Below, in pieces: positions 2,601-47,200 of a stretch of 64,000 bases of DNA. This stretch comes from Escherichia phage CMSTMSU: the sequence record MH494197.1. One strand, 5' to 3'. The translations under genes were made by a program, and so were the position numbers. The notes below the pieces were generated by a model. The model was not told the DNA's origin. It did not search any database and saw only the letters and a list, made by a program, of their open reading frames with translations. Within the stretch, counting starts at the first letter, position 1. Each line of letters begins with the position of its first letter.

Positions 2601-2612
2601 TATTGTTCGTCC

Positions 2613-4789: not shown

Positions 4790-4930
4790 CATTCCCTTTT
4801 AATAGATGTATTATAGAAATATTTATGAATCTATAACGAATAAAAAGACCCATCTATAACATTTGTCCAATTTGTCCCATTTTTGGTAATAAATACTACA
4901 GAGACATTTATTACATGGAGATTTAATAAA

Positions 4931-27530: not shown

Positions 27531-30035
27531 AGCATGGGGTGCTGATAAAGTTGGTCAGGTTTGGTGGAACACCAGCACTGCTTTCTACTTAGATTACACT
27601 CGTGCAATCTATGATGCTGATGGTAATGTGGATGTTGATGCAACAAATGAATATAAACGTTATAACTGGGGCAGATTGCTACCGCACAGTACTGTTGATG
27701 TTCTTGAATGGGTATGTTCGCCAGTTGAACCATATAACTGGGACAAATACTGCAAAGACGTTGCTAACAAAAATAAAACAACACTATGTACCTACCAAGT
27801 GGAACCGCATTGGAAGATAATTATAGTACGTTCTTAGAATATGATAGCACAACTGATACTTATGTTACAAAATACTATTTCTGGGTACGTGATACAATCT
27901 ATGTACCACCATTGCATTCCAGAACTAAATCTTGTACTGATATTGCTCGTATTATTAAAGAACCAGCACAGCTTAACATTCCTTGGTTTGCACCAATCAA
28001 TGAAAGCTCGTTCATTCTAAGTAATATGCAATTTGAAGTCAACGATGACACAAGTATTTTAACTGTTTCTTATTACATGGATAATACTGAAGTTATTAAA
28101 CATGACCAGTATCAATTATGTAAAGAAGGTGATAGCTATAACTTCAATCCATCAATCTGGACTTCTATGTGGAATTCTATGATCGGTCAAGAAACTACTG
28201 AATCAGGAACTGTTATTGATTTACTATATCCTTTAGTACCAAACGGTTTAGGTTCTAATAAGACTTGGTTCCAAGATGTAATTGAAGCTCGTAGAAACTT
28301 TGTAGAAAGTGCAAATAACTATTATCGCTCACAGAATATAACAACTAACACTGTTCTAATGGACGAAGTGTTTAATGTTAAAACTACTGAAGTTAACCCG
28401 AATGAAGTATCATATCGTGTACTAACTTACAATAGTGAATTAGTCATTGCACCTGAAAGTGACAAGTTCAAAGAAAACGACGCAGTACTAGTAAGTACTA
28501 GTGGTGTATTACCTAACCCACTATCAACTAGCTCTGTATATTTTGTGCATATTGATGCTAATGGTTATATTCATCTAATGAATAGTCCATCAAGTGCTGG
28601 TAGTGTGGTTACCATTACATTGGAAAACCGTGGTGAAGGTCAACAGAAAATGATTAAACAATCAGACTATGTTGAAGCACTAGGAACTTCATTGGACATG
28701 ACCCAGTACTGGTCACTAGCAGATTGGTATGATATTGGCTACGATAAAAATACTGCATATACACAAGAATCCAGCCTAGAAGATGCAAACACTAAGAACT
28801 ATCAAGTTGGCGACATTATCAGAATTACAGATGTTGATGGCATCTGGACATTGTACATTAAAGCACAATCACGTGATTCAGTTTACTGGAAAGCAATTGG
28901 TCGTGAAAATAGTACAGTTGAATTGAATGATATGTTATACGCTGACTATACAGTTCGTGATGCTAATGGTTCGTTGAGTAATCGTGAGATTAACGTTCGT
29001 AAAGCACTAGCTTTATTGAAGAACTCATTCGACTTACATCAGAGTGAAATTGTGTTTGATATGGTTAAGTATGTTCACGTAGAACAAAGCGTTGTTGATT
29101 GGGTATTCAAAACATCTTACATTTATATTGTAGGTTTAGAACAATCATTAGTACAGAACTATTCCAACGACAACTTGATTAATCAAATCGTTGAGTACTT
29201 TGAAGAAGTTAAACCATATAGAACTAAGATTCGTTCCCAGATTGAACAGAAAACTTCAGATGATGATTTAATTAAAGGTTTGTGTAATGATTTAGATCCT
29301 AATGGCTATATATTTGCAGATGGGACTTGGGTTAAAACGGAAAAAGACATTTGGGATTATGAATATGCTCAATTCAATGAGGTAACTCAACGTTGGGAGC
29401 AAGTTGGTGAATTGCCAAGTGATTTCGTAGCACCTAATCGCCGTTTCCAAGAAATTGATGTTATCATGCACTACGACAACACTCAATGTAAACCAAATGA
29501 TAATTTGGCAAGTGTTGATGTATTGGAAGAAGTGAATAAGAAATATCAATCTAATGCACAAGATGTTGTTAGTAATTTTGAATTACAACGTTACAAATAT
29601 ACATTCCCAGAATACAGTGATGAAGATTTCGACCTATTGGTTGCTTATCAGATGCAATTGTATTACCCAGAATTGAACGTAACTCTAGGGATTGCTTACG
29701 GTGTTAACCAATGGTATGCAGACCATGCAGATGATTTGGTAGCAACCGCAGAATTCACAGAAACGTTGAATCGTGTATATAAAGAATCAACACAAAATGA
29801 AATGTTTAATGACGTAAATCATTACGTTCAGTATAACACACTCTCTAACCGTTTGAAATTGTACACAGGTGCAGATGATGAAGTAATTCATGATGAAGTT
29901 GGATGTGGATTTAGTGGGTTAACCTATGATGATAATCCAAGCACCAGACTACCGTTTGGTTATGCATCCAGTACTGATTATAACTTTGGTTACTTTGAAG
30001 TTAGTAGTGAGTTGTATAAAAGTATGTTTCTTTAA
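27531..30035 (+). CDS. Baseplate/fiber structural protein segment (boundaries uncertain)
   Basis: ORFs 27463..27837 and 27786..30035 (749 aa) joined by frame switch. Confidence 0.4.
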
Positions 30036-30039
30036 TTAA

Positions 30040-31907
30040 AGAAAACAATACTACTGCAACTGATGATGAAGTTAGAATTATACTTGAAGTTGAATATGGT
30101 GTTTATTCATATCGCCATGTAGATGAAGATGGAAATCAACGATTCTACAATGACGCAATTCATGTATTGTCCGGTATGCGTGGTTTGTATGACAAAGATG
30201 CTACCGACCATTATGAAAAGGCTGAAGAAATACTAAGTAGAATGCCTATTGATATTCATGCATTTACTATGATGCCACGAAAATATGTTTATGTTAATGT
30301 TAATGGTGTATACGAGAGTATCCCAGATGACCAAAGCATTGATGATTTCATGGAAGACAAATTCATAACTGACGGTCAACTAGTTCAATTGGCAGAAATA
30401 AATCTTGATGACTTACCTCTTGATAGAAATAACCCAATGTACAGTGATTATCAGCACATCCTAGATAGCATCACCGATGCTAAGTACTACGATGATATGA
30501 ATGCATTTGATAACCTAGCACTTGAATCACAAACTTCCGAGTTAAAATGGGAAGTTGAAGGTGACGAAGTAGATCCGTACATAATCGACATTTCTGATAT
30601 TAACCCATCAGGAAGAAAGATTGGTCAGATTCGCTTCACAGTTGATGGTTATGGATTCAATAGTGTTTCACTAGTTCAATTGAGAGACAATAGTAGATAT
30701 AAAACTGAAGGTATGGTTATTATCAACCCTTATAAAACAACAGAAGCAATTGTTAGTATTCCTTCTTACGCTAAGATTGAAAATGATATTAGTAAATCAT
30801 ACAGTAAGTATGATGAAAAATACTTCTATAAAATTAAATCAATTGTTAGTGATACAGAAGCTGAAGTAATTGACAATACCCTATCTGATGGTGATAAGGT
30901 TATGATATTCACAACTGATGGTGAAGATTATGTGAGATACCAAAACAATGCATGGGAAACCATCTTGAGTGTATCAAAAATCAAAACTGACACCACACCA
31001 ACCTTGTACACAGTAAGAAACACTGCGAACGGAACTGTAGAACTACTAGATAGTACTGGAGTTGTACTTCGTTATGATAACATCACTAAACAACAACAGA
31101 ATGAACCAGCAATACCTCTAGCATTGAACATCGTTCGTATTAGAACCTTTGCTGATCCAGAATTCTTGGTTGATGGTGTTAAGTTGTATGAAACAAATAG
31201 AAACTATGCTATCGACGCAATGAACTATGAAGTATTCTACGACACAACACTATACGGTGGTTCTTATAATGATGGAATTACACCAGATGACGTTGATGTT
31301 TGGGTAGTGTCTAACGAGATATTTGAAGTTGATGGTGTTACCATTGATAACGGATATAACTTACCAATTACTGGTGCAGGTGTTCTTAGTGAGTTAGTGA
31401 GAACCAAAATGACTGATAGTGTGGAAATTAACGTGTTCGAGTATGATGTTGGTATTATTCAACCAGTACTGAATACTGAAGGGGTATGGGAATATGCATA
31501 TCCACTAGTTAGTGATACATATATTGGTGTAGTTGGTGGAACAGTAACTAACATTACTGCTATCAGTGAAGAAAATGCTACTTATGTTTCACAACCAGAT
31601 TCAGTTAGTCCATATAGTGTTACTAATAATGTTCTATCTGGTGCTGGTGCAAGTATGAATGATATTATTTCTCTTGGTTTTGAAAAAGTTGAAGTACGTT
31701 TTGCAAATAACTACTCCGTGGGTAATGTATAGTGCAGAACACGACTTTAAAGAGAATGTGACATATTCATTTAATGGCTTGAACTTAGGTAAAGTTAATT
31801 TACTAAAACGTTATAGTGTTAACAGTTATCCAATCGAACTATCTGTTTACTCCGATAGTTTGCAAATAAGTGGTAATGACATTAAAAATCTATTAGAAGT
31901 TAAATAA
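30040..31907 (+). CDS. Baseplate/fiber structural protein segment (boundaries uncertain)
   Basis: ORF 30167..31732 (521 aa) extended upstream and downstream (31659..31907) by frame switches; ends at terminator. Confidence 0.4.
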
Positions 31908-31908
31908 C

Positions 31909-31935
31909 AAAAGGAGAGCATTTGCTCTCCTTTTC
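31909..31935. terminator. Bidirectional rho-independent terminator
   Basis: AAAAGGAGAGCA-TTT-GCTCTCCTTTTC hairpin between convergent genes. Confidence 0.65.
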
Positions 31936-31938
31936 TTT

Positions 31939-34216
31939 TTACGCAATAACTTTTTCTATTGCTTTAGTTCGTTTAGGTTTGATAGCCAATTTACCATCAA
32001 TCACATCAAACGTTACGTTACCACCATTAACCAGAGAACCACACAACATCTCTTTAGCTAGTGGAACACGGATGTTTTGCTCAATAGTGCGTTTCATTGG
32101 ACGTGCACCCATCCCAACTTTAACACCATTTGTTGCCAACCACTCACGTGCCGCTTTAGTCAGGAAACTTTAACTTTGCGGTCTTTGATTTGTTCATTCA
32201 GACTACCCATGAACTTATCAATGATGCTGTCAATCGCTTCGCTGCTTAGGTCTTTGAATGTCACAATACTATCGATACGGTTGATGAATTCAGGTGGCAA
32301 GAATGCTTTAATCGCTTTATCTTGTGCTGTATCACTACCGCTCATCCCAATACTACGCTTGGTTGAATCTGCTGCACCAAGGTTAGTTGTCATAATAACA
32401 GTTACGTTATTGAAGTAAACAGTTTTACCTTGTGAACCAGTCAAACGTCCTTCGTCCAGAACCTGTAGGAAGGTTAGTAGTACTTTACGATCAGCTTTTT
32501 CGATTTCATCAAGCAACAGTACTGCATTCGGGAACTGCTCAATCTTGTCGAGTAGCAGACCGTTACCGGAATCGTGACCAACATAGCCGGAGGTGAACCA
32601 ATCAGTTTAGCAACAGTATGTTCCTGTGAAAACTCGGACATATCGAAACGAATCAGTTCAGAGCCAGTTGCATCAGCCAGTGCTTTGGTAATTTCAGTTT
32701 TACCAGTACCAGATGGCCCAACAAACATGAATGCACCTTGAACACTTGATTTATCACGCAGACCAGCACGAGCTACCATCACGTTATCAACCAGTTTCTG
32801 TACTGCTTCTTCTTGACCGTATACACGAGAACGTAGTGCATCTGGTAGATTACGCATACGTTCACTTTCAGTGCAAGCAACCACGTTAATATCTAGGTTT
32901 GCGATACCTGCAACAACTTCTTGAATCAGTGCAACAGTGATGATGTTATCATCAGTTTCACGAGAACGTACTTTCGCTGCTGCCGCATCCATTAGGTCGA
33001 TTGCTTTGTCAGGGAAGTGTTTGTTCTTCAGGAACTTATCACTTAGTGTAATAACTGCATCCATTGCTTCAGTACTGAACTCTACGTTATGGAAAGTTTC
33101 ATAAGTAGATTTCAAACCATTCACAATCGCACGGGTTTCATCAATTGTTGGCTCAACTACATCAATTTTCATGAAACGGCGAGTTAGTGCACTATCTTTT
33201 CGATGTTTTACGATATTCATCGTAAGTTGTTGCACCGATTACACGAATCTCACCACGAGATAGTGCAGGTTTGAGCATGTTACTCATATCCATAGAACCG
33301 TTGCTTGCTGAACCAGCACCAACCATAATATGGATTTCATCGATGAACACAATAGTGTTTTCACGTTTCTTCAGTTCTTTGAGTAGGTTATCGATACGTT
33401 CTTCGAACTCACCACGGTACTTAGTACCAGCAGTCAGTGCACCTACGTTCAGAGACAGAATTTCAACATCTTTAAGATGCTCTGGTACTTCACCATCAGC
33501 GATTGCCTGTGCTAGACCATCAATGATTTGAGTTTTACCAACACCAGCTTCACCAGTCAGGATGGCATTCTTCTTAGTCTTACGGGCCAGAGTTTCAATC
33601 AGTGCAGAAAGCTCTTTCTGGCGACCAATCATTGGTCAAGTTTACCTTCTTTGCAAGTGCGGTTAGGTTAGTGGTGTAATCTTCTAAACCTTTTGTTTGG
33701 ACGATGGTTGTTGTTGTGCCACTTTTTCTCCCCAGTTGGCTCATCACTAATGCTTTGAAGGTTGATTCCGTTGTCGATTGCTTCTACGTGCTTCTGTAAA
33801 GTTCGTGCTGCTTCAGTACAAGTGATACCCTCTTCACGCAATGCTGCTTCTAGTGCAGTATTTGGGAATGACAAACACTCAAACAGTACAAAATAAGCAT
33901 CAATTGAGAAATCATCACGTTTAAGTTGCTCAATTACTGATTTCTTAGAAAGTTCCTGAACTACACGGTTCACAAGAAGTGATGTGCGGTTCGCTTCATC
34001 ACCATCAGCACTTTTAGGTGCATGTGGAATGTTGTATTTTTCAGATATGCAATCAAACGACCGTGTAGGTTGTCTGCATCGATGTTCATATCTTCAAATA
34101 CTGCTTTGATGCTATCGATTGTCAGTACTGTAGCACTTAGATGGTCAATAGTCAAGAAGGTATGACCCAGAGAAGTTGCCAGTTCGTCGCTTTTTGAATA
34201 ATTGGGTAAGATTCAT
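31939..34216 (-). CDS. ClpA-like two-ring AAA+ unfoldase (Clp N-domain, D1, D2, C-terminal domain), frame-broken
   Basis: N-domain [12 protein letters not shown]; D1 Walker [25 protein letters not shown], Walker B IVFIDEIH; D2 Walker [19 protein letters not shown], Walker B MLDEIEKA; C-terminal [11 protein letters not shown]; about 758 codons as in E. coli ClpA; AGGAGA SD before ATG 34216. Confidence 0.85.
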
Positions 34217-34254
34217 GTATTCTCCTAAATGAGTAGTCACTCTAATTAATAAAC

Positions 34255-34282
34255 ATTATATCACATTCTTTGCGTTTGTCAA
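34255..34282 (-). promoter_or_regulatory. Strong sigma70-type promoter (TTGACA-16 nt-TATAAT with TGn extended -10), minus strand, upstream of ClpA-like gene
   Basis: Minus-strand TTGACAAACGCAAAGAATGTGATATAAT. Confidence 0.6.
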
Positions 34283-34325
34283 CAAGGTAAATAAAGATAT
34301 ACCCGATTTATTTTGGAGACAAACA

Positions 34326-35810
34326 TGGCATATAGAATGTGGAAAAAGGTAGAACCAATGATTACAAGTTCATTGACTCTGCCATAGCAGAACAATACAA
34401 CATCGGTGGTGTTGACATGTGGCTTTATGCCTATGTCGGACCAAAACAAGTCGCTGATAACACTGATTTATCATATGGCGGTGATTATTATGGATCAGAT
34501 AGTACCGTTGTGTCAAGCATTGGTGATTTAATTTTGGTGACACTCCAAGTCGTAACTATAATCTCGAAGCTATCACCTTAAGTTGCGTCTACCAAGTCCA
34601 AGAAGCAACTCCTGACTTGAAAATCCCGATTGTTCTTCAACTTTAACACTATGGACATCACAATTCATTATAACACAATGATTCAGCGTTTGGGAAGAAA
34701 AATTATGCCGTGACGTAATCGAACTTCCTAACTTACGTGATTTTGATGTACTTGGTAAAGATTCTGGTTTAAACCGCTTCTATGTAGTACAAGATGGGTT
34801 TAGAACGTCAGAAGGTTACTCAGTTACATGGCAACATCACATTTACAAACTCCGTGTTAAACCTCTTACTGATTCACCAGAGTACTCTGACCTTCTAGGT
34901 AACAATAACTACCCTGATGACCCAGATGATCCAAACAACGGCAATGGTAATACTGATGATGGCTCTTCAGAGAACAGCAGCTATGGTAATGAAATGGATA
35001 TTATGAACCGTATCATTATGCAAGCTGATGATGAAGTACCATACATTCATTTTACTAACGAACACTTGTTCGATGACAGACCAGATACTGTTGATTTGTC
35101 TAAGTATATGCTAAATGGATACGAATTACCAGAGGAACCAGCAAATAAAATGTATTTCCTCAAGAAAACTTACCCAGTACTGAAAGAACTATCTAATGAT
35201 ACATGGATTTCTGTAGAAGTCAAGCGTGGAACAATCTTTCCTCGCAAACCGATGGATGGTGACTTCTTCTTTAAAGAAAACGAGGCTGATGTCACTGGCT
35301 TCTCATTGTATCAATACGATAAATCTGCCAAAAGTGGCTAAATTGTGATGTTGAGTATACTACAGAAAGCACACCACCACAAGGGGTTGATGATTTTTAT
35401 ATTGAATACAAAGAACCACACATTTATCAGTACTTAAATGGTAAATGGGGAGAACCAGAAGTAACTTACGTTAATGACCCATTCACTTCTAATAGTGTTT
35501 ATGGAAATATCGATTCACAACAAGATTATCGTCCTAAGATTCCTCCAGCACGAGGTACAGTTCCTGAAGGTAACATGTTCCCAAGTGATGCAGTTGATGG
35601 TGATTACTACTATCGTACCGATTATACACCAGTAACCCTATGGGAATACAGTGCGTCCAAGAATTCTTGGGTGATTTTCGATTACGGTGGTAGAAAACCG
35701 TGGAAGGTGCAGATCTTGCTCTAACAGAATTTGTTAATAGCCCGAACCGTGTGCCATTACATGATGCAGTTAAACCTAATACAGTGTATCGTATACATAA
35801 GGATTCAGAA
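34326..35810 (+). CDS. Large hypothetical protein (about 495 codons), frame-broken
   Basis: GGAGA SD before ATG 34326; fragments 34339..34581, 34994..35341 and sub-60-aa pieces chain to stop near 35810; TAAATA core at 34290..34295. Confidence 0.4.
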
Positions 35811-37132
35811 TGAAAATAGATTATTATTATGATGGTCAATTTCGTCGAGTACTGAAACATCTTATCAGAGTGTTTGGTGAATTTCAAGTACAAAATGGTG
35901 TTGATGCTGACGGAAAACCAAAATATAAGAAAGTTCCTTGCCGCTATGCAGATATTTCACGTATGGCAGCAGCAATTATTAATGGTAACAGTGAGAACGT
36001 GCTTCCAACAGCACCAATCATGACCATTAGTGTAAACCAACTTAAACTAGATCGCAAGTCAGTTCGTTCAAACGCAAATGAAACATTGGTTATGGGGACT
36101 AACAAGTCCCGAATTAACGAATATACTAAAGACTTAGATAAACAGTATAAAGTAACTCGTCATAACCCAGTACCTTGGACATTTACTTTTGATGTTAATA
36201 TTTGGGTTACACAAACACAAACCAAAATGGAACTATTTGAGCAAATTTCAACATTGTTTGCTCCTAGTATTCAATTACAACTCTCCGAGAACCCATTGGA
36301 TTGGACATCATTGAGTGATGTGGAGTTAATTGACTGTCAATTTACTACTCGTGGTTTCCCACAAGGAACCGATAGTGATTTGGATATAATGATTTTGACA
36401 TTTGAAACAACAATTTGGTTCTCTTTGCCAGCTATTGTTGAGAAACCAAAACTTATTCAACAAATTACCACCAATATTAAAGGTGCTCGTGATGAACTTG
36501 ATTTTGAAATTGGTAATTACTCGGATATCATTACTGATGTATTCACACCAAAGAACTTATGTATTAAAGTTGATGAAATAACAAACTCTGAACTTAATAT
36601 TCCAGATACTTACCAACTCACTCTTGTTAGTCAATCACTATCAGAAACATCACCAAATGGTGGAATTTATTCATGGGAAAAATACCTTAAGTACTTGGAC
36701 CCAGAATATGAAGACAAGACGGTTGGTATCAAATTCCAACAAGCTATAGAAGAGGACAACCCACTAAAAGGACACATCTCTTCATTTGGTGAAGGTGCTG
36801 AATCTAACAAGATTGTAGTTCAGCTTGATAATAGTAATTATACTGTTGATTATACAATACATGGATTCATTAGTAAAAGCTCTTTGTTATATAACGCACT
36901 GCCTGAACAATATTATGTAAATAATAGCATACATAACATCATTTACAAAGAGACTGAAATCCCAGCGAACTATTTGTTTAAAATTACCAATGATGGAGCA
37001 GAACTTATTGAGCCATCACTAGTACACAACTATGTTTATAATATGGAAGATAGTGGATATTATAGATATAATGACAAATTCAAATGGCATAAGAGTATTA
37101 TGTCAGTATATCGTCAGGGTATTGGAAAATAA
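35810..37132 (+). CDS. Hypothetical protein, 440 aa, intact (structural by context; tail-tube-fold family is speculation)
   Basis: Uninterrupted ORF; AAGGA SD; overlapping stop/start with upstream gene. Confidence 0.55.
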   Translation: MKIDYYYDGQFRRVLKHLIRVFGEFQVQNGVDADGKPKYKKVPCRYADISRMAAAIINGNSENVLPTAPIMTISVNQLKLDRKSVRSNANETLVMGTNKSRINEYTKDLDKQYKVTRHNPVPWTFTFDVNIWVTQTQTKMELFEQISTLFAPSIQLQLSENPLDWTSLSDVELIDCQFTTRGFPQGTDSDLDIMILTFETTIWFSLPAIVEKPKLIQQITTNIKGARDELDFEIGNYSDIITDVFTPKNLCIKVDEITNSELNIPDTYQLTLVSQSLSETSPNGGIYSWEKYLKYLDPEYEDKTVGIKFQQAIEEDNPLKGHISSFGEGAESNKIVVQLDNSNYTVDYTIHGFISKSSLLYNALPEQYYVNNSIHNIIYKETEIPANYLFKITNDGAELIEPSLVHNYVYNMEDSGYYRYNDKFKWHKSIMSVYRQGIGK

Positions 37133-37161
37133 CTTTCACTGACAAATAAGGAGGTGTTGTT

Positions 37162-37623
37162 ATGAATGAAGCAGTAGGTGCTATATTTTTATCTAAAAGT
37201 ACTGGACATATGATGTTAAACTTGAGATCAGAAAGAAGTACGTATTCTAACAACTGGGCATTTGTTGGTGGGAAGCTTGAGTATAATGAAACTCCGTTAC
37301 AGGGTCTTATGCGTGAGATTAAAGAAGAGCTAGGTGATTCTATTCCAACGATAATAGATATTATACCATTTGATGTATTCTGTACGAAGAATGGTAAATT
37401 TAAATATTATTCATTTGTCATTGTAGTTGAAAATGAATTCGTACCTACTTTAAATCATGAGAGTTCGGGTTATGCATGGGTTAAGATTGGCTCATGGCCC
37501 AAACCATTACATCCGTGCAAAAACACATTACTTAACACAAATTTAATGAAGGATTTCTATTCATTGTGGGAAAGTATACGACAAGGTACACAGTTTGTCA
37601 ACAGCTTACCATATCGATATTAA
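37162..37623 (+). CDS. Nudix hydrolase
   Basis: Nudix box GGKLEYNETPLQGLMREIKEELG (GX5EX7REUXEEXGU); AGGAGGT SD; intact ORF. Confidence 0.85.
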   Translation: MNEAVGAIFLSKSTGHMMLNLRSERSTYSNNWAFVGGKLEYNETPLQGLMREIKEELGDSIPTIIDIIPFDVFCTKNGKFKYYSFVIVVENEFVPTLNHESSGYAWVKIGSWPKPLHPCKNTLLNTNLMKDFYSLWESIRQGTQFVNSLPYRY

Positions 37624-37624
37624 T

Positions 37625-37650
37625 AAAAAGGAGCCAATGGCTCCTTTTTC
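37625..37650. terminator. Bidirectional rho-independent terminator
   Basis: AAAAAGGAGCC-AAT-GGCTCCTTTTT between convergent genes. Confidence 0.65.
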
Positions 37651-37651
37651 T

Positions 37652-38325
37652 TTATACCCCAATTAGTGGGATACCTGTTATGTTAAGTAGAACAGATGCT
37701 TGAAGCTTAACTGACTCACCTGCCGAAAGGTTGTTTACTATACCATCGACGCGGAACCCTAAGTTTTTATTAGAGTTGAGAGAGTTAATCACCCAGTTTT
37801 CGTAATCCGCTTTTGTAATACCATTCGGATTTGGGAGAGTTGGATCAACATCATTAATTACCATAGAAACATCCCAATTCGGGCGACTACTTGTAATTAC
37901 ATCCTTGATTGATTCTAGTTGTGTAATGCGACGTGGATCTGGAATCTGACTTGCACCAATTGAACCGAAAAATGTACCTTGGTTATCAACATAGAACTGA
38001 CCTTTAATGAAAAATGTTTTGAATTATACGGAAGAGAAACAATTTCACCTGATGAATCACTAACTTCACGAATCATAATTTTCAATTCATAAAAATAGTT
38101 ACTACCAAATTCAAACACACCAGTACCATTTGTGAATGTTGTCCAGTTATTTGAATCAACCTGTGAAGTACCACCCATATTGAAGTACGCTAATGGCTTA
38201 GTACTGTTACTTTGTGTAAATTCAATATATTTCTTACCTGTATCATAGTTGATATCAAGTAGTGTTGAGTACTCTTTATTTTCTGGACGAGATGTTTGAA
38301 TTTCACGCCATTCTTTATTTTTCAT
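37652..38325 (-). CDS. Hypothetical virion/fiber-associated protein, frame-broken
   Basis: ORFs 37915..38325 and 37652..37864 joined by one frame break; TAATG overlap with upstream gene. Confidence 0.4.
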
Positions 38326-38745
38326 TAGGACACGAAGGAATCACCATTACTGGTAAGAACCATACGACCCATAATACTATTTTCACCATCTGGTACTGTG
38401 TTGAAAATTGAAATCATTGGGATAGATGCCCAGTCAGCTTCAGATGCAGTATCTACTGGCTGACGAGCATTATCAACTAATGCAAGAAGTAGTTCGCCAG
38501 TGTTGCCAGTATTTCTGTACCAAATCTGACCATTAACGTTACCACGAGGTGCAGTAGCTCCACTGAAGTTCTCAACCAAGTGGAGGAAGTTTTCGTTCCA
38601 TGCTTGACCGTAACCAACTTTATTTCGACCTGCAAAGTTTAACGGTACTGGGTTACTACCGTTGGTTTGGTCCTAATATTACGTTATTTGGAATGGTAGC
38701 ATAAACGCTACCATTACTTCTATAAATTGTATAACTTACACTCAT
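38325..38745 (-). CDS. Hypothetical protein (about 140 codons), frame-broken
   Basis: MSVSYTIYRSNGSVYATIPNNVI... joins ORF 38325..38579 (NENFLHLVENFSGATAPRGNVNGQIWYRNTG). Confidence 0.4.
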
Positions 38746-38757
38746 ATCATCACCTTA

Positions 38758-39363
38758 TTATTGTAGTTGGACACGAACTGTGTATTTGATTTGCAAAACA
38801 CGGTTAGCACTTTTCTCAACTGGGTGAAAAATAATATGGGTAAGTGGAATACCGCTATCACCATTTGTATATAAACCCAATTCGTCAAATACATATGTCC
38901 CATCCATGCTAGTACCAGAGCTAACACCTTGGTCAGATGGCTCACCTAAACCTAATGTGCAAATACAGACGATATCAGTGTAAGCTTGGCACGGAATGTG
39001 AACAGTTGTAATGTTGTTATATTGTGAATCAATACCAGCAGAGATACGTGGGTTGATTTTTTCAGATAAGTCTGAGAATATAGACCACCGAAAGAAGTAA
39101 CGCGTGGTTTCTTGTATGTGATACGACCAGTACTCAAAACTACTGTTCCACCATTACCAAAACGCATCTCACTAATAGATCCAATAGGAATACCAGTACT
39201 ATCTTGATTATAAGCCAACGCATTAGCAATAGCAGTACTCATATTTTCAGGGTGAATTGCGTTTGATTTATCCAAAACGATTTTTGGTTAGATGGATCAG
39301 TAACGTCAGTAATTAGTACATGACCCTTAACAAATAGTTTTGGTTGTTCTGTTTCTAATTTCA
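38758..39363 (-). CDS. Hypothetical protein (about 200 codons), frame-broken
   Basis: MKLETEQPKLF... joins ORF 38952..39275 and a C-terminal frame ending QIKYTVRVQLQ. Confidence 0.4.
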
Positions 39364-39408
39364 TTTCTAATCCTTAGTAGTTAATTAAAATTTGTTCTAA
39401 CTTACCAG

Positions 39409-39870
39409 CTAAACTTTTTGTACATCAGATGGATACTTGCTAATGTAATCACGGTCAATACCGACTTTCAGATAGGTAAAGTTTCCGGTTAAGGTTTCAG
39501 CGAATGTACCAGTTGTACCTTGTTCTCTAATAAGGTCACCGCCATTTGGGTTAAGAATGACATTATCAGTAAATTCAAGATAGAAGTTGCAGCTTTCGGT
39601 AAATTTAATTGGGAACCAATCATCGTCAGATGGATTACTTGCCAGTGTAGCGAGTACGTAAATTCTACCAATGAAGTTACGTAGGGTAAAGGATATTGTA
39701 TGTAATCCTGTAGTACTACCATAATAGCCGCCACTAGCTAATGGTAATGTTTGTTCGTTCCAATGATAATCTAAGTTAGCAGGATACCAGCTATCTGATT
39801 CAGGAAATTCTTGCCATGAACCATCTTTAGTTTTTCTTTTGAAGAGGAAGTCTTTTGATCTTAATGCCAT
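39409..39870 (-). CDS. Hypothetical protein, 153 aa, intact
   Basis: ORF 39409..39870; AAAAGGG SD; TAAATA core on minus strand in divergent intergenic region 39871..39979. Confidence 0.5.
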   Translation of the reverse strand: MALRSKDFLFKRKTKDGSWQEFPESDSWYPANLDYHWNEQTLPLASGGYYGSTTGLHTISFTLRNFIGRIYVLATLASNPSDDDWFPIKFTESCNFYLEFTDNVILNPNGGDLIREQGTTGTFAETLTGNFTYLKVGIDRDYISKYPSDVQKV

Positions 39871-39979
39871 TGTTAAGCCCTTTTAGTAGTGAACTTTCAT
39901 TTATTTATTAATGGCAACGAAATGTATTTTGTACTGATAAATATTGGTATATGACATTAACTCATACAAGGGAAATATT

Positions 39980-41105
39980 ATGACAATTTCATTCAACAAT
40001 GGGTCAGGTGGTTCATGTAATAATTCTGGCATCAAAAGTTTAGTTATTAACGCTGCTGGACATTTAATTGTAACCTATTCCGACAATACAATCCAAGACC
40101 TAGGTCTAGTGGTTGGACAAAATGGTGCTAACGGTAGAAACTTTTATCCAAATGAGATAGGTTTTGAAGTTCCTAATGAACTCTTCCGTGTTGGTGAAGA
40201 ACTAGGGTGGTGTTATCTTAGTCTTGCAAACGGCACTAGTACTTTATATTTTAAATCAAACGATGCCCAAGAAACAATTAGTACTTGGAACCGTGTAGAG
40301 TTTGGTAAAGGTGATACTGGTGAAGCTGGTAAACCATTCCACATTGACAGTTCTGGTACGGCGTTTCCAACAACTGGTCTTTTCGATAATTACACATTCT
40401 ATAATACTGAAGATGGTAAATTATATTTCTATCAAAGCGTAACTGCAACATGGAGTGATGGTATTCCTTTCCGTGGTGAACAAGGTCTACGTGGTCGTTT
40501 CCATATTGATAGTACTGGTAGTCAATTCCCAAGCATTGATAATCTACCACAAGATTATTGCTTCTATAACACGACAGATGGTAATTTGTATTATGTCGAT
40601 ATCGTAACTACATCATCAACCCCAACTAAAGAGTGGAGTGCTGGTATCTTATTCCGTGGAAAAGACGGTGAAGAAGGTAAGCAAGGTGAACAAGGTATTC
40701 AGGGTGAACGGTAAAGATACAGTTGTTATCATCAACACTATTGATCATTCATGGACTAACGCATTGTTAGTTATTGGTACATGCCCTGCTGGATACCTAG
40801 TAACTAATATCGAAGTTGATATTAACCAAGCATATGATGAACCAGTAAATGAAATGTTTGTACGTTTCGGTGGTGAAGCACAAGAAGATATTGGTGGTAC
40901 TGTAATTGCACCTGTTGATTATTTCGATATCAACCGCAAAATGCGTTACATTGTTAACGAAACCAACCACGAAGTATCAAGTAAAGATGAAATCATTTCT
41001 TGTGTATTCAATGATTCCGTAAACAACAGTTCATTTGGTGAAATGAAGATCGTTTGTACTTTATCATGGCAAGCACCTATTCAGCCTATTCAAGATAACA
41101 TTTAA
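39980..41105 (+). CDS. Fiber-like protein with internally duplicated module and short collagen-like G-X-Y run
   Basis: Two copies of FHID..G..FP...Y.FYNT.DG.LY...FRGEQG; GKDGEEGKQGEQGIQGE; joined to ORF 40638..41105 by one frame break; AAGGGA SD before ATG 39980. Confidence 0.5.
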
Positions 41106-41116
41106 AGAGGGTTGAT

Positions 41117-43207
41117 AAATGGCAGTTTTTCCAATTTAGAAGGGACCATGATGCCAACATTCAAGTTGGGTAAACGTGGTGCTTCTATTAATTTTGTAAA
41201 CGATTCTGTCGCAATCAAAGACTTTTAGGCGAAACGTTCCTACCTGTTAAGGTGGGAACTCCTAATGACGATGATTCCGCAGTAAACGTTAGGTATCTTG
41301 AAGATAACCCAAATGCTTTATTTGGCGTACTTCCACCAACAAATGACATTGGTAAAAATAACAACACTTATTTTCAAGTTGATTCTGAGGGTATTGTTGA
41401 TATCTTTGCAAAACAAATGATGTTTGGGTAAAATCATTATACATTAATAAAAATGTCCTTTCCAGTGTTAACGGTGCTGATTATATCGGACTTATTACTG
41501 GAGGAACACTTCAACAGGCACAGTTTTACATAACACCAGAAGAGTTTGGTGCAAAGGTGATGGCATCACTGATGACACGGCGGCGTTAACGCATGTGCAG
41601 TTTATGCTAAAGAACACAAAATCCAAATTCAAGCTGGTGGTAATTATCGTATCAGAACTGCTGTTTATTTGAATGATATTCAATGGTTTGGTGGTACAAT
41701 CACTGGTAACGGTGGCACAATGGTATCGGTACTGAATAGTACAATCCAACAAGCAACATTAACAGGATGTTATTTAAAATTCTTTGGTGGTAATGGTAAA
41801 TTTTATTTTAATAAATTTATTAATATTACAAGTACTGCTGCATTTCTAATGCAAGGTATGACTGAATCAGGTACTATCGACTTCTGCTTTAATGAAATGA
41901 CACAATGTAAGTACGGTGTTCTTCAGCAAGGCACTGGTGAAAAATGACAGTTGGGCGTTATTCATACAACCACATCCATGATATATATGGTGATGCAATT
42001 GAATTGAACGTAGTCAACTCACATTACCCAGACGGATTTGTAATAGAAGGCAACTTGATTGAAAACGTAGATGGTACAAATGCACCAATTCCTCTTTCAA
42101 ACTGGGGTATTGGTATCGGTGTTGCAGGTTCTGGTCCTTATGATGTGAATGCTGATGATTCACAATATGTAAAAAATTCGTTATAAAAATAACCGCTTGT
42201 ACAATGTCCGTCAATGTATTCACGTTGAGTTGGGTAAAGACTTTAAAATTCTCAATAATGAAGTTTATCCATCAACGTTGGTATCAATTGGTACTGGTTT
42301 GACAACCGCTGGTGTAATTACTTATGGTTCTGTTGATTTTATTATTGATGGCCTATCTGGGCATCTATTAAATGATCCATCAGTAACTAACCGTATGGTT
42401 TCTATTAACTGGGGCGTAACATCTGGTAAATTTGCTGGTCCTCCACGAAACTTTAAATTATGTAATCTCCACATTCCTGAGTCGTCTATTATTGTGTATA
42501 CTTCAGGCTCTGATAATTGGCTAAATACTACTGAACTTTCTAATATTACATGTAGTAGAATTCAATGGCGTGGATTGCCGTCATCTTCCAAGTTTAATAA
42601 TATCAGTACTAAAGAACTTGATGTTATTGGACAACACCTTGCAACTGAAGGTGAAGGAGGGGCTTATATACTCGCTCTAAATATACATATACCAACTGGA
42701 CTAATTGTGTTGTTCAAGATGATTGTAACATATCAAAATATAGTTTCTCAAGAATGTATGTTGACCGTATTGACCAATCATCTAATAACTTTAAAGTAAC
42801 CACTGCAATTGATGGAACGGGTCATCGTGGACCTGTAGTAATACCTGTAGTTGAACAGTATTACGTGCCTTATGATGTTTTTCCGGTGGGAGATATTTCC
42901 CAACAGGAACAATTATCCATAAACAATCAGGTGGAAAATTTATTGTTACAGTAGGTGGTTCTTTCTTTGGTCGATATGACACAATTAGACAAACAGTTGC
43001 AGGACAAACTTATATCGAAGCATTGGGTGTATCATGGGGTGATAATCAATATGCTAAAGCTGCTGGAACCGAAATCCTAATCACAGGAGCAGGGGAAAAT
43101 GGCGAAGATTTAAAACATATATCACTAGAGCAGTTTATGTTGTTAATAATGCGTATCGTATCGATATTGCCGATCCGATTGTTACTGCTACCGCAGCAGG
43201 GCATTAT
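41117..43207 (+). CDS. Tail fiber/tailspike with pectate-lyase-type beta-helix (depolymerase-like) motif; frame-broken
   Basis: PEEFGAKGDGITDDTAAL motif typical of right-handed beta-helix polysaccharide depolymerases; N-terminus MAVFSNLEGTM restored by one homopolymer correction. Confidence 0.5.
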
Positions 43208-43262
43208 TGAAAGCTGCTCAACCAATAACATATATCACCCTATCTTAAAGGAGATTATAAAA

Positions 43263-44157
43263 ATGGCAGTTTTTCTAATTTAGAAGGAACCATGAAGAAG
43301 ACCTTCATACTTGGTAAAAATGGTGCACAAATTGCCACTAATGGTAATGTTGTTCAAATCCAGAACTACACGGGTACACAACTTCTTCCTGTTTCAGCAG
43401 GTGACCCAACCGCAAATACACACTTGGTTACATTGGGTTATTTGAATACACATAGCGGTGGTGGTGGCGGTTCCGGTATTTTACGTGGAACTATTGCACC
43501 ATCTGAATCAATCGGTGTAGATGGTGACGCTTACTTCTTAGTTGACAGTACTAATATTATTCAGATCTATATTAAAGACCTTGGTGTTTGGAAGCCTCTC
43601 CAAAGCACAACTCCGTACTGATAGTTCTTACGTTACTACTGAAATCGTTCCTGTATCGGCATTTACATTAGTTCACGGAACAACAGATCAATATACTTAT
43701 TCTTTACCTGAATCAGTACATGGTCGTGGTCCAGATATTATGGTTCAGCTACAGGGTGATCCCGGTAACATCCCACTTGACACTGTATTCCAAACTAACG
43801 TCACTGTGAGTGGTATTGGTGACATTACGATTGATGTTATTGGTCAAATTACTGAATACACAAGTGTCAAAGTCAACATCATAGGAGCAACAACAATGAC
43901 AGTACCTTATAGTAAATTAATTAATATAGCAGATTGGGTAGCATCTGGTGATGATTACACCATTACTGTTCCAGCGTCAGAACATAACCAAACACCTGAC
44001 AATTTGTATATTTCTATATATTCAAATAAAACACCGCAGTACAGCAGCATCACCATTTGAACTGGTAATAACCGAAACTCAAATTGATGCAAGTGGTAAT
44101 GTTACATTCACTTCTGATGAAGCGTTTAGTGGTAAAATAGTAATTTCCGGTAAATAA
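43263..44157 (+). CDS. Second fiber protein sharing the MAVFSNLEGTM N-terminus, divergent C-terminal part
   Basis: ORFs 43292..43621, 43542..44060, 43948..44157 chain by frame switches; leader nearly identical to 41103..41152. Confidence 0.5.
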
Positions 44158-44164
44158 AAAATAA

Positions 44165-44196
44165 TCCAGACTGCGTTCCATCGAGTCTGGATTTTT
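44165..44196 (+). terminator. Rho-independent terminator
   Basis: ATCCAGACT-loop-AGTCTGGAT hairpin followed by TTTTTAT. Confidence 0.6.
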
Positions 44197-44271
44197 ATAT
44201 TAATAACTAAATATATGTATATTAACAAGGTCAAATGTATTTTATGCTTTTGCCTATTTGGAGGGAACTAA

Positions 44272-47200
44272 ATGTACTCGATTAAAACAGATCTAGATAT
44301 AACTGGTGGTGCAACGGTTGGTAAAGATCTTCTTGTGAAAGGCGATGCAGTATTCAATAAAAATCTAACAGTTAATGGAACTGTAACTTTTGCTGACGCT
44401 GTATTCACTGCAATTGAAGCAGGAACTGTAGACATTTCATCTACACTAGATGTTGCTGGTAAAGCATCATTGAATGGTGGAATTGAAGTTCATGGTAATT
44501 CCGTAATTGGTAATTTGCCTGTTGGCTCTGATACTGCAACGATTAATTCTAATGCACAATTCCAAAGCCCAGTATCAATGGCAGGTAACCTAACACAAAC
44601 CGCTGGCACTGCTGTACTAAAAGATACCCAAGTGGCATCAATGGATGTTCTTGGAACTTCTTCATTTAAAGGTAATATTACTGCTGAAACTGGCACTACC
44701 GCAGCATTTGACAAAATAACTGCAACTGATGCAACATTCACAAACACTGCAACTACTGATATCACATCAACTGGAACTGCAAACTTTAAAGATGTGAATA
44801 TTTCCGGTACACTAGGTGGAACATTTAGTCTATCTGATGTTAATGCAACAACTCTAACTGTTTCTGGTTTAACCAGTCTACAAGGTGGTGTTACATTAGG
44901 TTCCAACATTACTGGTGTGAATAGTAGTGCAAACTTCCGTGATATTAAAATTGGTTCCAATGCTGCAAACACTAACTACCGTTTGAGCTTTAACTATTCT
45001 GCTCCAAGTCTTCGCCCAACTGTAATTCTACAGAACGAAATCCAATCAGAATTGATGTCTCCAGCTACCCTAAGTGTATTGAAAACTGCATCTTTTGGTG
45101 ATTCGTCATTATCCACTTTTGGTATTACTGGTAATGGTCTAAACAAACTAGATTACCTAACAGTATCTGGTAACTCTGTTCAAGATCCAGCAACTCCACT
45201 ATTACAAGTAACTTCAGGTAAAACTAAAGTTCATGATTTCGAAGTAACAGGAACTGCAACTATTCCTAACATTGAAAGTACTGGTACTGCTAATTTTAAT
45301 AACATCAACGTATCTGGTACACTCGGCGGTACTTTCAGTCTTGATGATATTGAAGCAAACACTCTAACTGTTTCTGGATTAACTAGCCTTGTTGGTGGTG
45401 TAACTTTAGGTGCTGATATTTCCGGTGCTAATAGTACTGCTAATTTTAAAGCAGTAAGTTTAGGACAAAACGCAGCCGATGCTAACGTTAAGTATGGTTT
45501 TGCTTATTCTGCCCGGTGCTCGTCCAACTGTAATTCTACAAAATGAAATTCAGTCTGAACTAGTATCTCCAGCAGTACTAAATGTACAAAAACTGCTACC
45601 TTTGGTGATGCATCTCTTGCAACCTATGGTATCACAGGTAACGGTCTAAACAAACTAGATTATCTATCTATTACTGGTAATGGTACACAAAGTCCAGCTA
45701 CCCCACAACTACAAGTAGCTGGTAAATCAGTACTAAATGATGTTGAATTCACTGGTACTGTAACTGGTCTAACTGTTGATGTGAGTGGACAAGATCTAAC
45801 TCCTAAATCAGTAGTTGCTGCTGAAGCAATCAAAGGTCAAACCCTTGAATCAGTTGGTCAAACCACCGTAGGAACTAACCTACAAGTTGGTGGAACTGCT
45901 AATGTTGTTGGTGCACTAACTGGTACTGCTGCTACCTTCACTGGTGATGTAAGTGCTGCTAAAGGTACTTTCAGTGGTGATGTTAGCGTTACTGGTCAAA
46001 CTGTAACTGTACGTGATTTAGTAGTAACTGGTACAACTACTGGTGTAACTGCCCAAGCTGATGTTGATGGTCTTGATATCGCCCCAAATAAAGTTGATGT
46101 TACAACAACACTATCTGTTGCTGGGGACACTACTTTAGCTGGCCTAACTGCTAGTTCAGTAACCAGTACTGGTGATGTTACTGGTGCGTCTGTATCTGGT
46201 AATACAGTAACTGCGGCTGGTGCACTATCTGGTGGTTCTCTTGCAGTAACTGGTGCTGGTTCTATGGCTTCACTAACTGTTCCAAGTATTACTGGTGACA
46301 CTACTTTTGCTAATAACGTAACTATTACTGGAACACTAACTCCGAGTAGTATAGATTTAAGCACTACTGATGTAAGTGCTGCTTCTTTAACAACTACTGG
46401 TAACGTAACTGTTGGTGGTTCTCTTGCAGTAACTGGTGCTATTGATTTGTCTGCTGCTGATGTAGTAACAAAATCAGTTAGTGCAACTAACCCAAGTACA
46501 TTTGGTGTAATTAATGCATCTTCTGTTGTCGCAACTGGTGACGTTTCAGGTGGCACTCTAACTACTACTGGTGCAGCGAAAGTAGGAACACTAACTAGTA
46601 CTGGTGTAGTATCTGGTTCGCGTTTGTCTTCTGGTACTGCAACAATCTCAACTTCTGTAACAGTTCCAACTTTACAAGCTGAAGCTGCTGGTGCTGGTAC
46701 ACTAAATCTAGCAAGTAATGTTGTCGCGGCAAAGATCTAACTGTCACTGGTGTATTCAAACCTGAAGGTGGTCTTGACCTAACAACTGTTGATATTACTG
46801 CAAACTCACTAACTACTACTGCTGATGTTAATGTTGGTGGAAACTTAGTAGTTGATGGTACTTTTGACCTAAGTGCTGCTGATGTGTCTGTGAAATCTCT
46901 TGCAAGTGCAGAGACAATTACAAGTGCTGGTGTTATTACCGTTACCGATTCAACCAATACTAGTTCGTTACCTAAAATTACTTCAACTGATGCAACACTC
47001 TTTACAGTAAATGCAGGTACTATTAATGCAACTGGCAACAGTGTACTACAAAGTGTATCAGCTACTCAAGTAACTGCAACTAGTGCTGAATTGACTGGTG
47101 TTGGTCTTGGTCTTCAAGTCGATAATGATGCAAACGTTGGTGGTGCATTATCTGTTGGTGGAATCGCAACTGTTGGTTCTTTAACAACAACTGCTGCTTC

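What the first reader, a model, noticed from the sequence alone, without database searches (positions are those of the whole stretch)
37162..37623. Nudix hydrolase at the end of a late-gene block
A canonical Nudix box protein with a strong SD sits directly after two large late genes and before a bidirectional terminator; its substrate is unknown.
Basis: partly seen in the sequence, partly recalled or inferred. Interest (0 to 1): 0.3.

Follow-up and report, generated by a model that had tools for sequence, protein, structure and literature searches.

The report
Known jumbo-phage Nudix hydrolase gene
This is a real, well-conserved Nudix (MutT-like) pyrophosphatase gene at the end of a tail-gene operon of an E. 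coli jumbo phage; public genomes already annotate it as such, so it is ordinary, and only its substrate remains unknown.

Summary
The ORF at 37162-37623 (+) is real. It encodes a 153-aa protein with a complete Nudix box (G37x5E43x7R51E52I53xE55E56xG58). It matches Pfam NUDIX at E=8e-15 and PHROG 1198 "MutT/NUDIX hydrolase" at E=2e-43.

The window is an Asteriusvirus-type E. coli jumbo phage, 98.9% identical to phage Turkey3 and 82% to 121Q. The same gene is already annotated as MutT/NUDIX hydrolase in more than 30 public genomes.

The strong ribosome-binding site (TAAGGAGGT), the two upstream virion genes and the bidirectional terminator are all confirmed. The window carries nanopore-type deletions. 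After correction the protein is 154 aa (HPGAK, not HPCK), all catalytic Glu residues remain, and the upstream stop lies only 12 nt before the ATG.

The gene is a deeply conserved member of the tail-completion block, with dN/dS of 0.016. The linkage to the gp15-like gene holds down to 41% identity. Four relatives with virion-protein data do not report it as a virion protein.

Its closest characterised relatives, by profile and by fold, are MutT, NudI and NudG, which hydrolyse (d)NTPs. It is not an orthologue of T4 NudE.1. It meets no equivalog threshold, so the substrate stays unknown. My best guess is a (d)NTP-type substrate.

The parts
34288..34295 (+). Possible late-promoter-like element (TAAATAAA), about 30 nt upstream of the first gene of the block
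   Evidence: It aligns with an ATAAATA site at the homologous position in CBB. ATAAATA is the late-promoter motif proposed for Rak2-like phages (PMC5259590). The window version is not an exact match, so this is inference only.
34325..35813 (+). Virion structural protein gene, 497-498 aa in relatives; broken into fragments in the window by 1-2 nt deletions
   Evidence: It corresponds to Turkey3 XMR01226 and 121Q gp580 'structural protein'. PHROG 11591, virion structural protein. Deletions are listed.
35810..37149 (+). T4 gp15-like tail sheath stabiliser / completion protein gene. The true stop is TAA at 37147-37149; in the raw window the ORF ends early at 37132 because of a G deletion at 37117.
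   Evidence: PHROG 11196 E=4e-213. The Turkey3 orthologue matches Pfam T4-gp15_tss at E=4.7e-22. Flagged ESI-MS/MS in the PA5oct record.
37147..37155 (+). Shine-Dalgarno sequence TAAGGAGGT, overlapping the stop codon of the upstream gene, 6 nt before the ATG
   Evidence: Sequence. A gap of 9-13 nt with an SD-like sequence is conserved in Turkey3, 121Q, RaK2, CBB and Vibrio phage 2.275.O.
37162..37623 (+). Nudix hydrolase gene (153 aa as read; 154 aa after correction)
   Evidence: AlphaFold2 model with mean pLDDT 93 and a Nudix fold. dN/dS = 0.016.
37270..37338 (+). Nudix box (G37 to D59) with the catalytic residues R51, E52, E55 and E56
   Evidence: Regex match. These residues are invariant across 56 family members.
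37515..37519 (+). Site of three single-base deletions (CCTGGTGCAAAAAA read as CCGTGCAAAAA) that turn the conserved HPGAK into HPCK; a probable sequencing artefact at a Dcm site and a homopolymer
   Evidence: G119 is invariant in the family.
37625..37653 (.). Bidirectional intrinsic terminator: A5, GGAGCC, AAT, GGCTCC, T5CTTT
   Evidence: Fold energy -14.8 / -18.8 kcal/mol with z about -5 on both strands. Conserved in Turkey3 and 121Q. The G17 record lists a 'terminator' feature among the features under the 4-kb match.
37652..38745 (-). Convergent virion structural protein gene (366 aa in relatives; fragmented in the window) that ends at the same terminator
   Evidence: It corresponds to Turkey3 XMR01223 and 121Q gp577 'structural protein'. 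PHROG 14394.

Best explanation
The ORF is a functional Nudix pyrophosphohydrolase. It belongs to a phage-specific clade (PHROG 1198) that is a fixed member of the tail-completion block of Rak2-like and PA5oct-like jumbo phages. It is most likely transcribed with the two upstream virion genes from a late-type promoter. It is probably translated by re-initiation, because the upstream stop lies inside its ribosome-binding site. The message ends at the two-way terminator. The enzyme stays in the infected cell rather than entering the virion. The Glu-rich Nudix helix (R51, E52, E55, E56) together with E100 should bind divalent metal and cleave a pyrophosphate bond. The most likely substrate class is a nucleoside triphosphate, either non-canonical or pyrimidine (d)NTP, giving (d)NMP + PPi. 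This would be a 'house-cleaning' reaction like those of MutT, NudG and NudI, protecting or adjusting the nucleotide pool while the 350-kb genome is replicated and packaged. Shown here: the gene, the motif, the predicted fold, the purifying selection, the synteny and the terminator. Inferred: late timing, translational coupling, absence from virions, and above all the substrate. The confidence of 0.4 refers to the substrate class; that this is a real, selected Nudix hydrolase gene of this phage clade I hold at above 0.95.
For: Identity and activity. Pfam NUDIX E=8e-15 and PHROG 1198 E=2e-43. All Nudix-box catalytic residues plus E100 are invariant in 56 homologues. The AlphaFold2 model has mean pLDDT 93.

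Selection. dN/dS is 0.016, against 0.04-0.05 for the flanking structural genes. Protein identity to RaK2, CBB, Vibrio phage and PA5oct is 80, 73, 62 and 50%, against 59, 62, 42 and 32% for the gp15-like protein.

Operon structure. The order structural gene, gp15-like gene, Nudix gene, with a 9-13 nt gap, is found in Turkey3, 121Q, RaK2, CBB and Vibrio phage 2.275.O. The order also holds in PA5oct, where the Nudix ORF overlaps the end of the gp15-like gene. The linkage to a T4-gp15_tss gene persists in metagenomic relatives at 41-49% identity. Terminator fold.

Not a virion protein. The gene is not flagged in the MS-annotated PA5oct record, nor marked 'structural' in the CBB and 121Q records, while its neighbours are. 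The word Nudix does not occur in the phAPEC6 virion-proteome paper, which reports 62 virion proteins.

Confidence: 0.4

Rival explanations
1. RNA 5'-end enzyme. The protein removes pyrophosphate (RppH-like) or a nucleotide-metabolite cap such as NAD (like T4 NudE.1 or NudC) from transcripts. This marks host or earlier phage mRNAs for RNase E-dependent decay late in infection.
Confidence: 0.25
2. NDP-X small-molecule hydrolase. The protein would act on ADP-ribose, NAD(H), FAD, ApnA, (p)ppGpp or a nucleotide-derived immune signal, tuning NAD/ADPR metabolism or blunting a host defence, as proposed in general for jumbo-phage Nudix domains.
For: Comparative-genomics reviews place most phage Nudix domains in NAD/ADPR conflict networks. 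They note T4-NudE-like genes in late clusters (PMC9503650; PMC7824862). Rak2-like phages carry NAD-salvage genes (PMC5259590). In phiRSL1 the homologue lies three genes from a nicotinamide phosphoribosyltransferase. A PADLOC defence-candidate Nudix profile (PDC-S07) matches at 3e-13.
Against: No ADPRase, NudC, NadM or Ap4A-hydrolase family ranks near the top by sequence profile. The NadM-type equivalog scores 18 bits against a cut-off of 409. The protein is not in the T4 NudE clade. It has no fusion or adjacency to Macro, NADAR, SLOG or ART domains in any locus examined. The PADLOC match is at superfamily level only.
Confidence: 0.2
3. A virion-packaged enzyme that is injected with the DNA and acts at the very start of the next infection. 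Its place in the structural operon would then reflect co-assembly.
For: The gene is embedded between MS-verified virion genes and is tightly coupled to the gp15-like gene. Packaging has been suggested for some late-cluster phage Nudix proteins (PMC9503650).
Against: It is not reported among virion proteins in any of four related phages: the MS-annotated PA5oct record, the CBB and 121Q records, and the phAPEC6 virion-proteome paper. It has no fusion to a portal, MuF or other head protein and no N-terminal extension or propeptide. The 154 aa are essentially the Nudix fold alone.
Confidence: 0.05

Closest known systems
MutT/NUDIX hydrolase of Rak2-like jumbo phages (PHROG 1198; e.g. 121Q gp578 AIT14468, RaK2_00066, CBB_232, Turkey3 XMR01224)
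   Same: The corrected protein is 100% identical to the Turkey3, TH47, EC.P1, vB_Ec-M-J and WPEC5 proteins. It is 97% identical to 121Q and PBECO4, 78% to RaK2 and 72% to CBB and GAP32. Genomic position, ribosome-binding-site spacing and terminator are the same.
   Different: Nothing biological. The window copy differs only by an apparent sequencing artefact (HPCK for HPGAK). None of these proteins has been characterised experimentally, as far as the searchable literature shows.
E. coli / Salmonella / Klebsiella NudI (YfaO), nucleoside triphosphatase (PDB 3oga, 3n77, 6dt3)
   Different: The NCBIfam NudI equivalog scores 32.5 bits against a cut-off of 95. The phage clade has its own invariant residues (Y82, E92, F93, W106, H117, G119) and a PLHPGAK motif. 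NudI's own physiological substrate is not firmly established: a review lists it with NudG for 'modified pyrimidines' (PMC5270733).
MutT (8-oxo-dGTP diphosphatase) and NudG (CTP / 5-methyl-dCTP pyrophosphohydrolase)
   Same: They share the N-terminal pattern R...W-x-F-x-G-G-K-x-E, the Nudix box and an extra Glu (E100) about 45 residues after the box. Profile E-values are 2e-12 to 2e-10. Public records name the phage gene 'MutT-like'.
   Different: Equivalog cut-offs are missed by a factor of three to five. Alignments mostly cover the N-terminal two thirds only. In my hand alignment to E. coli MutT (sequence from memory), the region that reads the base in MutT, around N119, is replaced by the clade-specific PLHPGAK motif.
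T4 NudE.1 (e.1), the only biochemically characterised phage Nudix of this size
   Same: Both are roughly 150-aa stand-alone phage Nudix proteins. Each is the only Nudix gene found, in the T4 genome and in this window respectively. T4 NudE.1 hydrolyses ADPR, Ap3A, FAD and NAD, and decaps NAD-RNA in vitro.
   Different: It belongs to a different PHROG family, 1185 rather than 1198. Identity is 24% over 103 residues, BLASTP E=0.01. hhalign probability is 94% but only over the Nudix-box half. The context also differs: T4 nudE lies next to the lysozyme gene e, not next to a tail gene.

Membership tests
Nudix hydrolase superfamily (Pfam PF00293) | Nudix box GX5EX7REUXEEXGU | tested here: met
   GKLEYNETPLQGLMREIKEELGD, residues 37-59. 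All specified positions match except the final U, which is D.
Nudix hydrolase superfamily (Pfam PF00293) | Profile score above the Pfam gathering threshold | tested here: met
   55.4 bits against a cut-off of 21.1, E=8.4e-15.
Nudix hydrolase superfamily (Pfam PF00293) | Nudix fold with the catalytic helix | tested here: met
Nudix hydrolase superfamily (Pfam PF00293) | Metal-dependent pyrophosphohydrolase activity | not testable with these tools
   This needs an enzyme assay.
PHROG 1198 / Rak2-like phage MutT-NUDIX clade | Full-length profile match and near-identity to annotated members | tested here: met
   E=2.4e-43 over residues 1-152. 97-100% identical to annotated Asteriusvirus proteins.
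PHROG 1198 / Rak2-like phage MutT-NUDIX clade | Position immediately downstream of the gp15-like tail sheath stabiliser gene | tested here: met
   Looser linkage is seen in metagenomic relatives.
MutT, 8-oxo-dGTP diphosphatase (TIGR00586 / NF008044) | Equivalog score at or above the curated cut-off | tested here: not met
   34.4 bits against 97.9, and 35.7 against 148.
MutT, 8-oxo-dGTP diphosphatase (TIGR00586 / NF008044) | 8-oxo-guanine-reading Asn (E. coli N119) in the C-terminal loop | tested here: inconclusive
   HMM alignments to 1mut stop at about residue 70-80. By hand alignment, with the MutT sequence taken from memory, the corresponding stretch is the clade motif PLHPGAK(N/S). No conserved Asn is evident.
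NudI nucleoside triphosphatase (NF012016) | Equivalog score at or above the curated cut-off | tested here: not met
   32.5 bits against 95, although NudI is the best structural neighbour.
NudG pyrimidine (d)NTP diphosphatase (NF007834) | Equivalog score at or above the curated cut-off | tested here: not met
   31.4 bits against 156.
RppH RNA pyrophosphohydrolase (NF001934-NF001938) | Equivalog score at or above the curated cut-off | tested here: not met
   Best score 25.3 bits against 118.
T4 NudE.1 family (PHROG 1185) | Best PHROG assignment to 1185 and full-length similarity to T4 NudE | tested here: not met
   PHROG 1185 scores 18.7 bits (E=0.0019) against 149.7 bits for PHROG 1198. BLASTP to T4 NudE gives 24% identity, E=0.01.
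NadM-type NMN adenylyltransferase / Nudix (NF003791) | Fusion to an adenylyltransferase domain and equivalog score | tested here: not met
   The protein is a single 154-aa domain. It scores 18.2 bits against 409.

The most novel reading that the evidence does not exclude
The clade-specific C-terminal motif (PLHPGAK plus an extra helix), the exceptional conservation and the deep linkage to the tail-completion gene could mean that this is not a MutT-like house-cleaner. It could instead be a dedicated late-phase enzyme of an entire jumbo-phage lineage with a new specificity, for example removing non-canonical RNA caps or destroying a nucleotide-derived host immune signal just before assembly and lysis.
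Probability: 0.12. Interest if true: 0.55.

Novelty: already known. Interest (0 to 1): 0.18.

Why it matters
As it stands it matters little. The gene is a correctly recognisable Nudix hydrolase that public records of more than 30 related jumbo phages already annotate. What remains open is the substrate, and why a soluble pyrophosphatase has been kept, under stronger constraint than its structural neighbours, at the end of the tail-completion operon across phages of Escherichia, Klebsiella, Pectobacterium, Vibrio and Pseudomonas. A biochemical answer would add a second characterised phage Nudix family beside T4 NudE.1. A practical point also follows: the window is an unpolished long-read assembly, so any ORF-level reading of it needs correction against relatives.

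Tried and rejected
1. T4 NudE.1 orthology is rejected. The two proteins belong to different PHROG families and share only Nudix-box-level similarity.

2. The idea that this Nudix replaces T4 gp56/Dut as the dCTPase-dUTPase feeding dCMP deaminase and thymidylate synthase is weakened. It was attractive because NudI is the best structural hit and because deaminase genes lie near the distant homologues. However, 121Q already has a MazG-like nucleotide pyrophosphohydrolase next to nrdAB.

3. No T4-type late promoter (TATAAATA) or Rak2-type motif (ATAAATA) occurs upstream of the block in the window. Only a variant, TAAATAAA, aligns with CBB's ATAAATA.

4. The simple terminator scan did not report the hairpin. 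Direct folding did.

5. The supplementary expression tables of the PA5oct RNA-seq paper are not held, so the temporal class of the PA5oct orthologue could not be read.

6. Literature searches for an anti-defence role of a phage Nudix of this kind found nothing specific.

7. The first profile (A2) included bacterial MutT-like sequences that inflated the match to 5x1x. I repeated the search with a phage-only alignment (A4) and the ranking held.

8. Recent horizontal acquisition is rejected. The synteny is deep, dN/dS is low, and the gene's GC content (34%) is close to that of the window (37%).

Full report
**Observation.** The ORF at 37162-37623 on the + strand exists as described. It encodes 153 aa. 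The sequence GKLEYNETPLQGLMREIKEELGD at residues 37-59 satisfies the Nudix box GX5EX7REUXEEXGU at every specified position except the last, where D replaces the hydrophobic residue. R51, E52, E55 and E56 are all present. It is the only such box in any frame of the 64-kb window. The match is far beyond chance: Pfam NUDIX scores 55.4 bits against a cut-off of 21.1, E=8e-15, and PHROG 1198 'MutT/NUDIX hydrolase' gives E=2e-43 over the full length. TAAGGAGGT, a perfect 9-nt complement of the 16S rRNA 3' end (established knowledge), ends 6 nt before the ATG. Seven bases after the stop codon comes the hairpin GGAGCC-AAT-GGCTCC, flanked by A5 and T5 runs. It folds at -14.8 kcal/mol on the + strand and -18.8 on the - strand, with z about -5 on both strands. 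A minus-strand structural gene ends on its other side.

**Source and sequence quality.** The region is 98.9% identical to Escherichia phage Turkey3, 98.6% to fEgEco12 and 82% to 121Q. These are jumbo myoviruses of 350-380 kb; the 121Q record places it in the genus Asteriusvirus. Against Turkey3, over 16 kb, the window shows 58 deletion events and no insertions. Forty-five lie in homopolymers and most of the others at CCWGG sites. That is the pattern expected of an unpolished nanopore assembly (own knowledge). It explains why the neighbouring genes appear as strings of short ORFs. Two of these defects touch the finding.

- A missing G at 37117 truncates the upstream gene. Its real stop is the TAA at 37147-37149, inside the Shine-Dalgarno sequence and 12 nt before the Nudix ATG.
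- Three single-base losses at 37515-37519 remove one codon net. They turn HPGAK into HPCK. G119 is invariant in 56 family members, and every close relative has HPGAK. The true product is therefore almost certainly the 154-aa protein that is identical to those of Turkey3, TH47, EC.P1, vB_Ec-M-J and WPEC5.

**Context.** The two upstream genes are a virion structural protein and a T4 gp15-like tail sheath stabiliser. The first is about 497 aa in relatives and is marked 'structural protein' in the 121Q and CBB records. The second matches PHROG 11196 at E=4e-213, and its Turkey3 orthologue matches Pfam T4-gp15_tss at 5e-22.

The order structural gene, gp15-like gene, Nudix gene, with a gap of only 9-13 nt before the Nudix ATG, recurs in Turkey3, 121Q, RaK2, CBB and Vibrio phage 2.275.O. 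The order also holds in Pseudomonas phage PA5oct. There the annotated Nudix CDS starts at an internal Met inside the Nudix box. The real ORF extends upstream and overlaps the end of the gp15-like gene.

In uncultured relatives at 41-49% identity a T4-gp15_tss gene is still upstream, with inserted genes in between. Only in very distant homologues (34-37% identity) is the context different. In phiRSL1 the gene lies between topoisomerase IB and homospermidine synthase, near nicotinamide phosphoribosyltransferase and dCMP deaminase. In BcepSauron it lies near a deaminase.

The block is preceded by TAAATAAA at 34288-34295. This aligns with an ATAAATA in CBB, which is the late-promoter motif proposed for Rak2-like phages (PMC5259590). 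The window has no exact copy of that motif there, so late timing rests mainly on the nature of the neighbours.

**Selection and localisation.** Between Turkey3 and 121Q the Nudix gene has dN/dS of 0.016 (dS about 1.1), against 0.04-0.05 for the flanking structural genes. Across genera it is consistently better conserved than the gp15-like protein: 80, 73, 62 and 50% identity against 59, 62, 42 and 32%. It is therefore a constrained, long-resident gene and not recent cargo. The MS-annotated PA5oct record flags the neighbours but not this gene, and the CBB and 121Q records mark the neighbours, but not this gene, as structural. The phAPEC6 virion-proteome paper, which reports 62 virion proteins, never mentions a Nudix protein. 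This is absence of evidence, but it is consistent across four phages.

**What kind of Nudix enzyme.** The AlphaFold2 model built on 57 sequences is confident (mean pLDDT 93, pTM 0.87). It shows the Nudix fold plus a C-terminal helix pair. Three independent comparisons point the same way.

- A phage-only profile searched against the PDB ranks a MutT-like protein (5x1x, 2e-12), NudI (2e-11), Aliivibrio MutT (3e-11) and NudG (2e-10) first. BdRppH and Dcp2 follow at about 1e-9. No ADP-ribose, NADH or ApnA hydrolases rank near the top.
- Foldseek ranks NudI first.

The nearest cellular proteins in the large database are 133-aa proteins named 8-oxo-dGTP diphosphatase. There is a sharp gap between the phage clade (E at most 1e-25) and these proteins (E at least 1e-9). 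No NCBIfam equivalog comes close to its cut-off. The clade also has its own invariant residues outside the box: Y82, E92, F93, E100, W106, H117 and G119, including a PLHPGAK motif. T4 NudE.1 hydrolyses ADPR, Ap3A, FAD and NAD, and decaps NAD-RNA in vitro. It belongs to a different PHROG family (1185) and aligns only over the Nudix-box half.

**Mechanism.** I commit to a soluble, late-made pyrophosphohydrolase acting on a nucleoside-triphosphate-type substrate, in the manner of MutT, NudG and NudI. Confidence in that substrate class is about 0.4. I considered the sharper idea that it supplies dCMP and dUMP in place of T4 gp56. I downgraded it because 121Q already encodes a MazG-like nucleotide pyrophosphohydrolase beside nrdAB and DHFR.

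The main rivals are these.

- An RNA 5'-end enzyme. Support comes from the full-length Dcp2 alignments, the BdRppH hit, and Nudt16-like Pfam hits in some family members. Against it are the neutral pI of 6.8 and the very low RppH scores.
- An NDP-X or immune-signal hydrolase of the NAD/ADPR network. No sequence, fold or neighbourhood link to that network was found.

**Novelty.** The gene is already annotated as MutT-like or NUDIX hydrolase in 121Q, PBECO4, RaK2, CBB, GAP32, PA5oct and many newer genomes. It is grouped in PHROG 1198. I found no experimental study of this clade. The finding is correct but ordinary. Only the unknown substrate and the unusually stable place in the tail-completion operon give it residual interest.

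Noticed in passing
window 29022-44974 (probably the whole window): Against Turkey3 there are 58 deletions and no insertions in 16 kb. 45 lie in homopolymers and most of the others at CCWGG (Dcm) sites. This is an unpolished-nanopore error signature. It fragments the ClpA-like gene (about 31925-34215, minus strand), the structural genes at 34325-35813 and 37652-38745, and others into short ORFs.
   Followed up: yes
window 37573-37601, minus strand (inside the 3' end of the Nudix gene): A near-consensus sigma-70-type promoter, TTGACA-17-TATACT (11 of 12), points antisense into the Nudix gene just past the terminator. Hexamers and spacing are identical in Turkey3, 121Q and RaK2 despite saturated synonymous divergence. 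The element is absent in CBB and the Vibrio phage. The window has 8 sites scoring at least 11 of 12, against 4.2 +/- 2.1 in simulations. It may be an antisense or early promoter, or it may be chance.
   Followed up: partly
window 34255-34282, minus strand: A perfect 12 of 12 sigma-70 promoter with an extended -10 TG lies upstream of the ClpA-like chaperone gene. It diverges from the structural block. This suggests that host-RNAP-driven (early or middle) and late units sit back to back here.
   Followed up: no
L004 (PA5oct MK797984) 4872-5420: The PA5oct Nudix CDS (EST35_0161, L004 5103-5420) is annotated from an internal Met inside the Nudix box, which cuts off the N-terminal third of the fold. 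The homologous ORF is open from L004 4872 (second Met at 4929). It overlaps the last ~65-120 nt of the gp15-like gene in another frame, with no canonical start codon near the point where homology begins.
   Followed up: partly
L011/L012 (metagenomic, 1671-4001) and L013 (1775-3685): In uncultured relatives the gp15-like and Nudix genes are separated by insertions. One is a 2.3-kb minus-strand cassette of five or six small ORFs. The other is a 636-aa DUF7487 protein with a faint restriction-endonuclease-like (MTES_1575) hit. The junction appears to be an insertion hotspot.
   Followed up: no
L016 (121Q KM507819) 28070-28807: 121Q gene 37 is a MazG-like nucleotide pyrophosphohydrolase sitting directly after nrdA/nrdB and before DHFR. 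It is a second, unrelated NTP pyrophosphatase in the same genome type and is relevant to what the Nudix enzyme is not needed for.
   Followed up: no
window 39902-39908 (-) and 39937-39943 (+): Two copies of ATAAATA, the proposed Rak2-like late-promoter motif, face outwards in the divergent intergenic region at 39870-39944. The minus-strand copy would drive the operon that converges on the terminator after the Nudix gene.
   Followed up: no
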